Source of the DNA: Sedimentisphaerales bacterium | GTDB lineage: Bacteria > Planctomycetota > Phycisphaerae > Sedimentisphaerales > UBA12454 | DNA: 64,000 bases | Direction: 5' to 3' | NCBI GenBank assembly: GCA_049518795.1 | Contig: JBEKRK010000001.1 | Coordinates: 654,477 to 718,476, forward strand | In this document: positions 50,300 to 52,355 of the stretch, piece by piece | Numbering within the stretch: position 1 is the stretch's first letter | How the letters are laid out: every line of letters starts with the position of its first letter | Notes under the pieces: generated by a model | The model's database searches: none | The model's input: the letters and a program-made list of their open reading frames with translations, nothing else | What the model was told of the DNA's origin: nothing | Position numbers and translations under genes: made by a program

Positions 50300-50440
50300 A
50301 TATCTTCCCTATTCAGATTCTACTCCAACATAAATTACCGCCCTTTACTTATTTTATATTTTAAGAGCTTGTCCTGAGCGGCCTGTGGTGAGCATAGTCG
50401 AACAAAGTCGAAGGAGCTGACCCTACTTGATCCTATTTCT

Positions 50441-51481
50441 TCAATAGCCATATCTGTTTTTAATATATGATAGCCAGTCTTTCCACTTGCCGTTGGAGTC
50501 ATTCTCTCTAACCCAGCTTACAAACTGTTGGTGCGAGAAGCTTGCGAACCCAACCTTGCCTTCAAAAATGCTACCCCATCCGATTCTGAAATCATCTATT
50601 CCGGAAGATTTTAAGCAGCTTATAAGGGTTTGGTTGTCTTGGTCATACGCTACACACGATATAACAAATTCATACTTGCCTGACTGAGCAATGCCCTCTG
50701 CCAATGCCTGTTGCCGGAAAAGCTGGTAACCATTCGTAGCAGCCGGACATGTTTTGAGTGTTCGCTTTCCATTCTCAGAGACCTTAATAAAGTCCCAATA
50801 TTTCCTGTTGGTATGATTTCCAGCTTCCCATTTATTCATATAGCATGTGTCTTCTGTATTACCCAAGACCTTTTCAATATCCAGACACCTCTTAATATCC
50901 GGATTGCCATAATCGCTCTTCCGCCCCGAGCAAGGGTAGAATGAATGCTCAGTATATTTATTCTCCGTCAAGACGAGTCCTTTGCCTCCATTAACGACAA
51001 ATGCAACATCAGGCGAGGTCTGGTTTGCCCCTCTTGTCCCCTGTGGCTCCCCAAGGAGTTCAGATGGTTTCAATTTCCCGTCTTCAGCGTATTCCAACTC
51101 GATCCTATCTACAGTTTTGATTTTATTGTTTACAAATTTATTTAGAAATCCAGCCAGCATGTCCTTGTCATCTCGAAAAGAGAAATACAGATTTGCACAG
51201 AGCATCCACGAACTCTTGAGATTATGACAGCCTTTATGTCGCTGGACTCCTTCCTTGTTGAGATATTCAGGAAGAGAATCTTTTATTTCCTCCCACAACC
51301 CGTCCTTCCAGAGATTTTCGGGCAATATCCATGGCCTTTCCACACCGTTTTGTTTACCATGCTCTTGATTACCAATATGCTTTAAACGCCAATCAACCTG
51401 TCGCCTTTGAACATCTGCATCAAAATCTAACATCTTACTCTCCTGATTTTTTGGCCAGCCGGTGTGGGTATTGTTACTCAA
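50441..51481 (-). CDS. hypothetical protein with a PD-(D/E)xK nuclease-like motif
   Basis: SPDVAFVV-x9-LVLTENKYTE fits the PD...(D/E)xK beta-strand pattern. 346 aa and Cys-rich. No other recognisable domain. Confidence 0.45.
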   Translation of the reverse strand: MSNNTHTGWPKNQESKMLDFDADVQRRQVDWRLKHIGNQEHGKQNGVERPWILPENLWKDGLWEEIKDSLPEYLNKEGVQRHKGCHNLKSSWMLCANLYFSFRDDKDMLAGFLNKFVNNKIKTVDRIELEYAEDGKLKPSELLGEPQGTRGANQTSPDVAFVVNGGKGLVLTENKYTEHSFYPCSGRKSDYGNPDIKRCLDIEKVLGNTEDTCYMNKWEAGNHTNRKYWDFIKVSENGKRTLKTCPAATNGYQLFRQQALAEGIAQSGKYEFVISCVAYDQDNQTLISCLKSSGIDDFRIGWGSIFEGKVGFASFSHQQFVSWVRENDSNGKWKDWLSYIKNRYGY

Positions 51482-51496
51482 TATGGTGTCCCCAGA

Positions 51497-51973
51497 TTAT
51501 ACCCGTCTTATTAGATCCTTCATTTCTCTTCTTATCTTATTCAATTTATCTTGAAGTTCGTGATGCTTTTCAAACTTGCCTCTTGTGCCATTACCCTTTG
51601 GTCCGGCTATCCTCAAGATAACAGTTTCTATATCTTTGCTATATCGGTGCTTATCTATTACAAAAAAACTAACCTTATCCCAACGATTTTTGTGCTTATC
51701 CTTTGTATGCCAATCAACTCTACCTAATAAGTTCTGGGCAATACCAACATAATACAATTTTTTGCCTTTGTATAAAGCATAAATTCCGGAGCTATCCCCT
51801 ATTACTTCTTTATATCGTGGTAAAAGGAGCTCAAAACCTTTCCTGTCTTTTTTCTCAAGATACCCTTTTACCAAGGCGCCTTTACAACTCTGCTTGAATA
51901 TTTTTCGCTTTGTTTTCTTTCTTTTAAAACCGCTCATTTTACGCATAATGTTTTTCCTATATTTGCCTAACAT
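51497..51973 (-). CDS. GIY-YIG nuclease family protein with a basic N-terminal extension
   Basis: GIYALYKGKKLYYVGIAQNLLGRV gives GIY-x9-YVG plus the conserved Arg; downstream Glu in DIETVIL. Its stop is 15 nt upstream of the next gene's start. Confidence 0.7.
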   Translation of the reverse strand: MLGKYRKNIMRKMSGFKRKKTKRKIFKQSCKGALVKGYLEKKDRKGFELLLPRYKEVIGDSSGIYALYKGKKLYYVGIAQNLLGRVDWHTKDKHKNRWDKVSFFVIDKHRYSKDIETVILRIAGPKGNGTRGKFEKHHELQDKLNKIRREMKDLIRRV

Positions 51974-52082
51974 TGTTTATATTGATCCGCATAACATCCC
52001 AAATATCATTGCGCCACCTTAATATGGTAAATCAGGGTTTAAATCAATAAATCTGTACTAAAAACTTATCATCCCATGCTGT

Positions 52083-52190
52083 TTATGCGGAGAAACCTTC
52101 TTTCTTCATTCTCTTCGCAAGCCGTTTCTCTTTTAACGTTCTTTGTGCTTTCTTTTTTACATCTCTTTTAGCATCACGACCTTTAGACAT
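52083..52190 (-). CDS. 35-aa highly basic small protein (MSKGRDAKRDVKKKAQRTLKEKRLAKRMKKEGFSA)
   Basis: Not in the ORF track because it is under 60 aa. ATG is preceded by aggaaagga at good SD spacing, and a TTGAGT-N17-TAGAAT promoter lies upstream. Confidence 0.4.
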   Translation of the reverse strand: MSKGRDAKRDVKKKAQRTLKEKRLAKRMKKEGFSA

Positions 52191-52237
52191 ATATTATCCT
52201 TTCCTGTCTACTGAATTCTGTATTCTTTTATATCAAA

Positions 52238-52266
52238 ATTCTATCTCTTTTTCTTTTCAAACTCAA
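52238..52266 (-). promoter_or_regulatory. sigma70 promoter TTGAGT-N17-TAGAAT for the small basic protein / nuclease islet
   Basis: On the minus strand, -35 is at 52261-52266 and -10 at 52238-52243. It shares a 17-nt identical block with the promoter at 56944-56972. Confidence 0.55.
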
Positions 52267-52355
52267 CGATAAAATTTATATTTAGCCGCCGCCATTCAGG
52301 GCGGCGTTACTTCCTTCCTTTTTACTTTCTATATATTGAACGACCAAGGAATTCT

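What the first reader, a model, noticed from the sequence alone, without database searches (positions are those of the whole stretch)
50441..51973. Two-nuclease operon (GIY-YIG protein followed by a PD-(D/E)xK-like protein) with no methyltransferase partner
On the minus strand a 158-aa GIY-YIG protein (GIY-x9-YVG, conserved Arg and Glu, Lys/Arg-rich N-terminal extension) is followed after 15 nt by a 346-aa protein. The second protein's SPDVAFVV...LVLTENKYTE segment fits the PD-(D/E)xK catalytic signature, and it has several Cys residues. Both folds are used by restriction enzymes; Eco29kI-type enzymes are GIY-YIG, and most type II enzymes are PD-(D/E)xK. No DNA methyltransferase, helicase or ATPase gene is adjacent. 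The pair lies in a repeat-rich variable region between an RF-1 domain gene and fhs, downstream of a tiny basic-protein gene with its own promoter. Possibilities are a modification-dependent (type IV-like) restriction pair, a new two-nuclease defence module, or a degraded mobile element.
Basis: partly seen in the sequence, partly recalled or inferred. Interest (0 to 1): 0.6.

Follow-up and report, generated by a model that had tools for sequence, protein, structure and literature searches.

The report
Two separate mobile nuclease genes, stacked
Two intact DNA-cutting enzyme genes do sit side by side without a protective methylase, but each belongs to its own widespread, independently mobile family and they are almost never neighbours elsewhere, so this is a small imported islet of stand-alone nuclease genes and probably not a dedicated two-nuclease system.

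Summary
The GIY-YIG gene is 51946-51497 (149 aa). The PD-(D/E)xK gene is 51433-50441 (330 aa), and 63 nt separate them.

The second protein is a full-length member of Pfam PF22558 REase-ARP (192 bits). D142, E157 and K159 are conserved, and so are four cysteines. The first has a true GIY-YIG fold with every catalytic residue invariant.

The pair is not conserved. A homolog of this GIY-YIG family lies upstream of REase-ARP in 1 of 119 other loci. REase-ARP lies beside none of six GIY-YIG homolog contexts.

A contig from a different lineage carries the same 55-nt leader, spacer and REase-ARP gene at 93-98% DNA identity. It has an unrelated 220-aa gene exactly where the GIY-YIG gene sits here. 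Near-identical REase-ARP genes occur in unrelated flanks in four further groups.

REase-ARP neighbours are mostly type I R-M subunits, other nucleases and defence genes. None is the ARG/phosphatase system that gave the family its name.

Best reading: a roughly 1.6-kb imported islet of two autonomous, methylase-free nuclease cassettes. A partner-dependent two-nuclease mechanism is a minority alternative. Earlier notes of this scan describe other REase-ARP members in other genomes. Nothing here has been tested experimentally.

The parts
51964..52018 (-). 55-nt leader upstream of gene 1, shared with contig L084 at 93% identity. It marks the left edge of the imported module.
   Evidence: blastn and alignment, window 52018-51964 = L084 4194-4248. 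It is unique in the window's own genome.
51497..51946 (-). Gene 1: small GIY-YIG nuclease, 149 aa from ATG 51946 (an alternative upstream ATG at 51973 gives 158 aa). It has a K/R-rich N-terminus, a catalytic core at about 51787-51590, and a C-terminal helix.
   Evidence: DNA homology to other family members is confined to the ORF and ends at the stop codon. dN is 0.06-0.13 with saturated dS.
51434..51496 (-). 63-nt spacer with a GGAG Shine-Dalgarno 7 nt before the gene-2 ATG. It belongs to the REase-ARP cassette and is conserved at 95% in L083 and L084.
   Evidence: No terminator-like site on this strand.
50441..51433 (-). Gene 2: REase-ARP family PD-(D/E)xK nuclease, 330 aa. D142 is at 51010-51008, E157 at 50965-50963 and K159 at 50959-50957. 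The insert with four invariant Cys (C168, C183, C197, C229) spans 50932-50747.
   Evidence: Pfam PF22558, 192 bits. Alignments A1 and A2. AF2 model pLDDT 93.5. More than 1000 homologs.
50406..50440 (-). 35-nt 3' tail of the REase-ARP cassette, conserved in L083 and L084. It marks the right edge of the imported module. Lineage-typical intergenic repeats start just beyond it (50414-50367).

Best explanation
Window 52018-50406 is a roughly 1.6-kb horizontally acquired islet holding two independent, stand-alone nuclease genes that are probably co-transcribed.

Gene 2 is a member of the computationally defined, experimentally untested REase-ARP family (Pfam PF22558). It is a PD-(D/E)xK Mg-dependent DNA endonuclease with a four-Cys metal-binding insert. 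It travels between genomes as a self-contained cassette of about 1.1 kb (ORF plus short flanks) and settles mostly in R-M and defence islands, often just after type I hsdS or after another nuclease gene.

Gene 1 is a very strongly conserved 140-150-aa GIY-YIG nuclease. Its relatives carry RAMA or HARE-HTH DNA-reader domains. It likewise lodges in type I R-M loci and next to recombinases.

Inferred mechanism, not shown: each enzyme acts on its own as a methylase-independent restriction-type nuclease against incoming DNA. Host DNA would be spared either because the target is a modification or structure absent from the host (type IV-like) or because activity is otherwise gated. Their adjacency here results from cassette exchange in a variable slot, not from an obligate partnership.
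For: Family and fold:
- REase-ARP hit is full length, with catalytic D/E/K and four Cys invariant and a confident model.
- GIY-YIG fold and catalytic residues are confirmed.

Non-conservation of the pair:
- A homolog of this GIY family is upstream in 1 of 119 REase-ARP loci.
- REase-ARP is absent from 6 GIY contexts.
- There are no GIY fusions among 150 family representatives.

Cassette behaviour:
- L083 and L084 share only window 51498-50406 (98%) plus the 55-nt leader. An unrelated 220-aa ORF occupies the GIY slot.
- L084's housekeeping genes are only 71-80% identical to the window's genome, so the transfer is recent and between lineages.
- Four more groups of 91-99%-identical REase-ARP genes have homology limited to about 1.04-1.2 kb.
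- REase-ARP was not found in 40 related genomes.

Context:
- Upstream and downstream partners are HsdS x7, HsdM, HsdR, Dcm x2, GmrSD x2, Mrr_cat, NucS_C/YhcG_C, HNH, PLD, AbiEii, AAA_15 and others.

Selection:
- dN/dS is about 0.08-0.17 for REase-ARP and below 0.1 for GIY-YIG.
Against: - The shared leader plus spacer with an exact ORF-for-ORF swap of gene 1 suggests the unit of transfer is a two-gene scaffold. That fits a functional 'partner slot' as well as it fits coincidence.
- About a quarter of the identified upstream partners are nucleases. These include two other GIY-type proteins in the same order and orientation (L011; L133 with a 4-nt overlap).
- Distant REase-ARP members appear fused to second nuclease-like modules (read from motifs only).
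- No biochemical or phage-challenge data exist for either family.
- No modified-base reader domain was found in either window protein.
- How host DNA is spared is unknown.
Confidence: 0.6

Rival explanations
1. Modular two-component nuclease system. REase-ARP is a constant subunit that works with an exchangeable upstream partner (here the GIY-YIG; elsewhere X248, HNH, PLD, Mrr/NucS-type, GmrSD or HsdS-linked proteins). For example, each partner might cut one strand, or the partner might supply target recognition or activation.
For: - Leader and spacer are conserved while gene 1 is swapped exactly ORF for ORF.
- Most upstream neighbours are on the same strand with short gaps or overlaps.
- About 12 of 46 identified upstream partners carry nuclease domains. 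These include GIY-YIG+RAMA in L011 and GIY-like+DUF4357 in L133.
- Fusion proteins among distant relatives have an extra D...ExK-like or RNase-H-like module (motif-level inference).
- Earlier scan notes describe paired or fused REase-ARP nucleases in other genomes (unchecked leads).
Against: - The partners share no fold, so a common physical interface is unlikely.
- Several upstream neighbours are housekeeping genes (Rnf, SDR, glycosyltransferase, RsmH context).
- In many loci the upstream gene is on the opposite strand or absent.
- The cassette that moves at near-identity is usually the REase-ARP ORF alone.
- GIY-YIG and X248 homologs live without REase-ARP in all 9 contexts examined.
Confidence: 0.22
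2. Selfish or homing-type nuclease genes, or remnants of a mobile element, with no benefit to the host. The nucleases would promote their own spread by cutting DNA and being copied or inserted during repair.
For: - Single-ORF cassettes occur at near-identity in unrelated flanks, with no recombinase.
- GIY-YIG is a classical homing-endonuclease fold, and I-TevI and T4 EndoII are weak hits.
- GIY homologs sit beside integrases and resolvases in L047 and L051.
Against: - Insertion sites share no homology, so classical homing is excluded.
- The GIY protein lacks the DNA-binding domains of I-TevI-type enzymes.
- Both genes are intact and under strong purifying selection across phyla.
- No terminal repeats, tRNA or transposase were seen at the islet.
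Confidence: 0.1
3. An ordinary type II restriction enzyme (one or both) protected by a cognate methyltransferase encoded elsewhere in the genome.
For: - The genome encodes at least 10 DNA methyltransferase genes on other contigs or positions.
- Weak fold hits include EcoO109I, SgrAI and R.Eco29kI.
Against: - The cassette moves between genomes without any methylase. A sequence-specific REase would be lethal on arrival.
- Methylases are adjacent in only a minority of loci, and those are mostly type I hsdM/hsdS with their own hsdR.
- REase-ARP is 55-60% identical across phyla, which is unlike fast-diverging type II REases.
Confidence: 0.05

Closest known systems
Pfam PF22558 REase-ARP. I infer this is the 'previously unknown rapidly evolving REase' of ARG-centred anti-ADP-ribosylation systems in Iyer, Burroughs, Anantharaman & Aravind 2022, Viruses 14:1977 (PMC9503650, section 3.8). 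It overlaps PF20796 PDDEXK_13.
   Same: Full-length profile match at 192 bits. PD-(D/E)xK core with conserved D/E/K. Stand-alone effector-type nuclease found in conflict and defence neighbourhoods.
   Different: No ARG, rhodanese-phosphatase, Nudix/WYL regulator or chaperone is adjacent, either here or in the 119 loci surveyed. The only ARG hit in this genome (one match over cut-off) is about 370 kb away. This subfamily is slowly evolving (55-60% identity across phyla, dN/dS about 0.08-0.17), not rapidly evolving. It carries four invariant Cys.
GIY-YIG nucleases: UvrC N-terminal domain, R.Eco29kI, R.Hpy188I, T4 EndoII, I-TevI, and the AtGRXS16 N-terminal domain
   Same: Same fold (Foldseek probability 1.0 to UvrC-N; 0.89 to R.Eco29kI). 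Catalytic Tyr/Tyr/Arg/His/Glu/Asn are conserved.
   Different: Only 149 aa, with a basic tail and one C-terminal helix. There is no UvrC C-terminal half, no I-TevI DNA-binding domains and no cognate methylase as for Eco29kI. The Pfam score is below cut-off. It forms its own extremely conserved subfamily, whose longer relatives add RAMA or HARE-HTH domains.
Genes embedded in type I R-M operons (PrrC/RloC-type guards) and type IV enzymes of 'immigration control' islands (Mrr, GmrSD, McrBC)
   Same: Both families are repeatedly found just after hsdS, or between hsdS and hsdR, and beside GmrSD or Mrr-type genes. Both lack a methylase.
   Different: No sequence relationship to these systems. In this window there is no type I system nearby. 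No ATPase/GTPase and no modified-base reader domain is present. This is an analogy only.

Membership tests
Pfam PF22558 REase-ARP | Profile match above the curated cut-off over the whole domain | tested here: met
   E 2.1e-56, 192 bits against a cut-off of 27; residues 27-345 of the 346-aa form cover profile positions 3-270 of 270.
Pfam PF22558 REase-ARP | PD-(D/E)xK catalytic residues on the canonical beta-strands | tested here: met
   D142 and E157 invariant, K159 at 90% or more. The strands at 143-147 and 152-158 in the AF2 model carry them.
Pfam PF22558 REase-ARP | Genomic association with ARG (ADP-ribosylglycohydrolase) plus a rhodanese-phosphatase system, the source of the name | tested here: not met
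   No such neighbours in the window. The genome's only ARG hit (one match over cut-off) is about 370 kb away. None appears among the most frequent families of the immediate upstream or downstream neighbours, nor among the upstream partners scanned individually.
Pfam PF22558 REase-ARP | Rapid sequence evolution, as described in PMC9503650 | tested here: not met
   55-60% identity across phyla, 51 invariant columns in 38 sequences, dN/dS about 0.08-0.17.
GIY-YIG nuclease superfamily | GIY and YIG motifs plus catalytic Arg, His/Tyr, Glu and Asn | tested here: met
   G54, Y56, G68, R76, H80, E107 and N119 are invariant. Y66 is invariant in A3 and at 90% or more in A8.
GIY-YIG nuclease superfamily | Profile match above the Pfam cut-off | tested here: inconclusive
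   PF01541 scores 20.1 bits against a cut-off of 22.6. The PDB profile hit to the AtGRXS16 GIY-YIG domain has E 3.8e-4.
GIY-YIG nuclease superfamily | GIY-YIG alpha/beta fold | tested here: met
   AF2 core pLDDT is about 90. The top Foldseek hits are UvrC N-terminal GIY-YIG domains, probability 1.0, TM (target) 0.61.
Type II restriction-modification system | A cognate DNA methyltransferase linked to the endonuclease | tested here: not met
   None in the window. The cassette transfers without one.
Type IV (modification-dependent) restriction enzyme | Cleavage only of modified DNA, usually with a modified-base reader domain | not testable with these tools
   No reader domain was detected in either window protein. 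Relatives of the GIY protein carry RAMA or HARE-HTH. Activity needs a bench assay.
Known anti-phage defence systems (PADLOC-DB v2) | Match to a system-specific protein model | tested here: not met
   REase-ARP has no hit. The GIY protein gives only weak motif-level hits to PDC-S14 (E 2e-4).
   1 of 119 REase-ARP loci (L011), 0 of 6 GIY contexts, and a 98%-identical REase-ARP with a different gene 1.

The most novel reading that the evidence does not exclude
REase-ARP of this clade is the constant half of a plug-and-play nuclease module. A short conserved leader and spacer define a 'partner slot' into which unrelated genes (GIY-YIG, X248, HNH, PLD, Mrr/NucS-type nucleases, hsdS) are swapped ORF for ORF. 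The roughly 1.1-kb cassette spreads between phyla by a recombinase-free route that its own nuclease promotes. That would be a new kind of self-mobilising, partner-swapping immune gene.
Probability: 0.15. Interest if true: 0.75.

Novelty: new member of a known kind. Interest (0 to 1): 0.35.

Why it matters
It removes a false lead, because the GIY-YIG/PD-(D/E)xK pair is not a conserved system. It also documents three things worth bench work:
1. A large, slowly evolving, Cys4-bearing subfamily of the untested REase-ARP family that lives outside its name-giving ARG context and favours type I R-M loci.
2. A 145-aa GIY-YIG nuclease kept at 80-90% identity between Planctomycetota, Patescibacteria and Nanoarchaeota despite saturated synonymous divergence.
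3. Clean examples of single-gene nuclease cassettes exchanged at ORF precision between lineages.

Any of these could yield a new methylase-independent restriction activity. They could also shed light on how defence genes move without recombinases.

Tried and rejected
- **Empty-site comparison with five same-genus genomes.** Only the RF-1-domain gene is syntenic and the flanks are rearranged, so no empty site could be defined.
- **Fold and sequence searches for REase-ARP.** Nothing significant came from PDB or BFVD. There were only weak PD-(D/E)xK hits (EcoO109I, SgrAI, Cas4-like), so no closer functional analogue was found.
- **Geometry of the four cysteines.** Model coordinates are not exposed, so Cys4 geometry (Zn versus Fe-S) could not be measured.
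- **Family libraries.** PADLOC, PHROGs and NCBIfam gave nothing useful for either protein. NCBIfam and PDB gave nothing for X248 or seven other unidentified partners.
- **Fusion (Rosetta-stone) test.** No GIY-YIG/REase-ARP fusions appear among 150 family representatives.
- **Repeats, tRNA and Rfam.** No terminal repeats, tRNA or relevant RNA family were found at the islet. The leader is not a genomic repeat.
- **Literature searches for 'REase-ARP' and PF22558.** These found nothing. The meaning of the name was recovered from PMC9503650. The link from that paper to the Pfam entry is my inference.
- **Recent transfer as the cause of GIY-YIG conservation.** Rejected, because dS is saturated.

Full report
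**Observation**

Two minus-strand ORFs occupy 51973-51497 and 51481-50441.

Gene 2 matches Pfam PF22558 'REase-ARP' over its whole length (E 2e-56, 192 bits) and PF20796 PDDEXK_13. It has more than 1000 homologs of 326-340 aa. In alignments of 20 and 38 sequences, D142 and E157 are invariant, K159 is nearly invariant, and C168, C183, C197 and C229 are invariant. The homolog lengths, a GGAG 7 nt upstream of ATG 51433 and the ORF of the 98%-identical copy in L084 make the 330-aa form the likely product.

Gene 1 scores just under the Pfam GIY-YIG cut-off. Even so, its homologs keep G54, Y56, Y66, G68, R76, H80, E107 and N119. Its profile hits the GIY-YIG domain of AtGRXS16 in the PDB. Its AF2 model has a core pLDDT of about 90 and matches UvrC N-terminal GIY-YIG domains with probability 1.0, then R.Eco29kI, T4 EndoII and Hpy188I. 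Homolog lengths of 138-151 aa and an AGGA before ATG 51946 favour a 149-aa product. The true spacer between the genes is 63 nt.

No terminator-like site separates the genes. No methyltransferase, helicase or ATPase gene is adjacent. The genome's DNA MTase genes all lie outside the window.

**Is the pair a unit?**

I collected 39 REase-ARP loci from genomes and 80 from metagenomes. An HMM of the GIY family finds a member upstream of REase-ARP in only one of them, L011. There it is a 241-aa GIY-YIG+RAMA protein. One more locus, L133, has a remote GIY-like+DUF4357 protein overlapping the REase-ARP start by 4 nt.

Conversely, six independent contexts of close GIY homologs contain no REase-ARP:
- after hsdS, in three of them (L040, L043, L055);
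- with AAA_15/UvrD-type genes (L043, L055);
- beside an integrase and resolvase (L047);
- near a serine recombinase (L051);
- among unknown genes (L058).

REase-ARP was not found in 40 related genomes, five of them congeneric. Only distant GIY homologs of about 240 aa occur in seven of them.

**Cassette evidence**

Contig L083 and the 242-kb contig L084 carry REase-ARP at 98% DNA identity. The homology runs only from window 51498, the base after the GIY-YIG stop codon, to 50406, which is 35 nt past the REase-ARP stop. L084 also shares a 55-nt leader (window 52018-51964, 93%). Between leader and spacer it encodes an unrelated 220-aa protein ('X248') where the window has the GIY-YIG gene. This is an ORF-for-ORF replacement.

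L084's housekeeping genes are only 71-80% identical to the window's genome. The module therefore moved recently between lineages.

X248 is itself a widespread, conserved family with no Pfam match (672 homologs). It sits in three other contexts without REase-ARP.

L080, at 92% identity, has REase-ARP between a beta-propeller gene and rsmH. Four further groups of 91-99%-identical REase-ARP genes share only about 1.04-1.2 kb, which is the ORF plus short flanks. DNA similarity among GIY genes likewise stops at the ORF ends.

At the islet's edges, lineage-typical intergenic repeats resume. The leader is unique in the genome. No terminal repeats, tRNA or recombinase are present.

**Context and selection**

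Identified upstream partners of REase-ARP fall into these groups:
- R-M subunits: HsdS (7), HsdM, Dcm (2).
- Nucleases: GmrSD (2), NucS_C/YhcG_C (3), Mrr_cat (2), HNH, PLDc_2, ResIII+RE_endonuc.
- Other defence or mobile-element genes: a ResIII helicase, AbiEii, M78 peptidase, AAA_15/AAA_27, DUF1828/1829, DUF3644, Bro-N, HTH proteins.
- A few housekeeping genes.
- About eight unknowns.

Downstream partners include HsdR, AAA_15/21 and M78+HTH. This is a defence-island signature with no constant partner.

The family name comes from ARG-centred systems predicted to counter viral ADP-ribosylation (PMC9503650, section 3.8). No ARG or phosphatase neighbours were seen here. The genome's only ARG hit lies about 370 kb away.

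Both genes are constrained. REase-ARP has dN/dS of about 0.08-0.17. The GIY-YIG gene has dN of 0.06-0.13 with saturated dS against copies in Patescibacteria-type contigs. Its 80-90% protein identity across Patescibacteria, Nanoarchaeota and this genome therefore reflects constraint, not recent transfer.

The REase-ARP model is confident (pLDDT 93.5) but has no significant PDB or BFVD neighbour. The only weak hits are PD-(D/E)xK proteins. The profile finds 1053 clusters at 50% identity, mostly stand-alone proteins of 330-365 aa. A few are fusions whose extra parts look, by motif only, like a second D...ExK module or an RNase-H-like domain. None is GIY-YIG.

**Interpretation**

Shown:
- two intact, conserved nuclease genes;
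- no linked methylase;
- independent distribution of the two families;
- cassette-level mobility;
- defence and R-M neighbourhoods.

Inferred:
- each is an autonomous, methylase-independent restriction-type nuclease;
- they are co-transcribed here;
- the Cys4 insert binds a metal.

The minority alternative is that REase-ARP works with an exchangeable upstream partner. The conserved leader/spacer scaffold, the share of nuclease partners, and earlier scan notes on paired or fused REase-ARP proteins in other genomes (unchecked leads) keep it alive. Heterogeneous partners, housekeeping neighbours and solo cassettes weaken it.

**Verdict**

The 'two-nuclease system' reading is only partly supported. 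Each gene is a new member of a known kind. Interest is modest (0.35). It lies mainly in the cassette swap, the unusually conserved small GIY-YIG family and the uncharacterised REase-ARP clade.

Noticed in passing
L084:4258-4920 (no counterpart in the window): 'X248' is a 220-aa protein family with no Pfam, NCBIfam or PDB match. It has 672 homologs at 58-96% identity across phyla and a conserved LFLDPDNGFE motif. It is itinerant like the two nucleases and occupies the GIY-YIG slot upstream of a 98%-identical REase-ARP.
   Followed up: partly
window 51497-51946 and loci L040, L043, L047, L051, L055, L058: The small GIY-YIG protein is 80-90% identical between this genome, Patescibacteria/Parcubacteria and Nanoarchaeota records, even though synonymous sites are saturated. 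That is exceptional constraint for a 145-aa accessory nuclease. Variants add an N-terminal HARE-HTH or a C-terminal RAMA domain.
   Followed up: partly
L092/L103/L098; L104/L109/L112; L142/L143; L080: Near-identical REase-ARP genes (91-99% DNA identity) lie in unrelated flanks. Homology is limited to the ORF plus about 30-115 nt upstream and up to about 170 nt downstream (mostly under 105 nt). No recombinase or repeats were seen, and the transfer mechanism is unexplained. An attC-like structure was not tested.
   Followed up: partly
window 52083-52190 and 52220-52277: The 35-codon basic ORF and its promoter-like module lie outside the block shared with L084. The promoter module matches intergenic sequence in congeneric genomes (91-97%), so it is native sequence and not part of the imported islet.
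   Followed up: partly
window 50367-50414: A 48-nt intergenic element just beyond the cassette's 3' edge recurs (about 93% identity, a second partial copy of 30 nt) in a congeneric genome (G002 loci L073 and L077). It is a lineage-specific intergenic repeat.
   Followed up: no
P0486, P0500, P0487 (representatives): Distant REase-ARP relatives of 590-700 aa carry extra regions with a second D...(I/V)VE(C/A)K-type motif or an RNase-H/DUF429-like N-terminus. This suggests fusions to a second nuclease module.
   Followed up: no
L043:5509-8591 and L055:2882-5004: GIY-YIG homologs sit in type I R-M operons together with AAA_15/AAA_21 ATPase plus UvrD-like helicase (Gabija-like) or a small HNH-like gene. 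These are composite R-M/defence operons.
   Followed up: no
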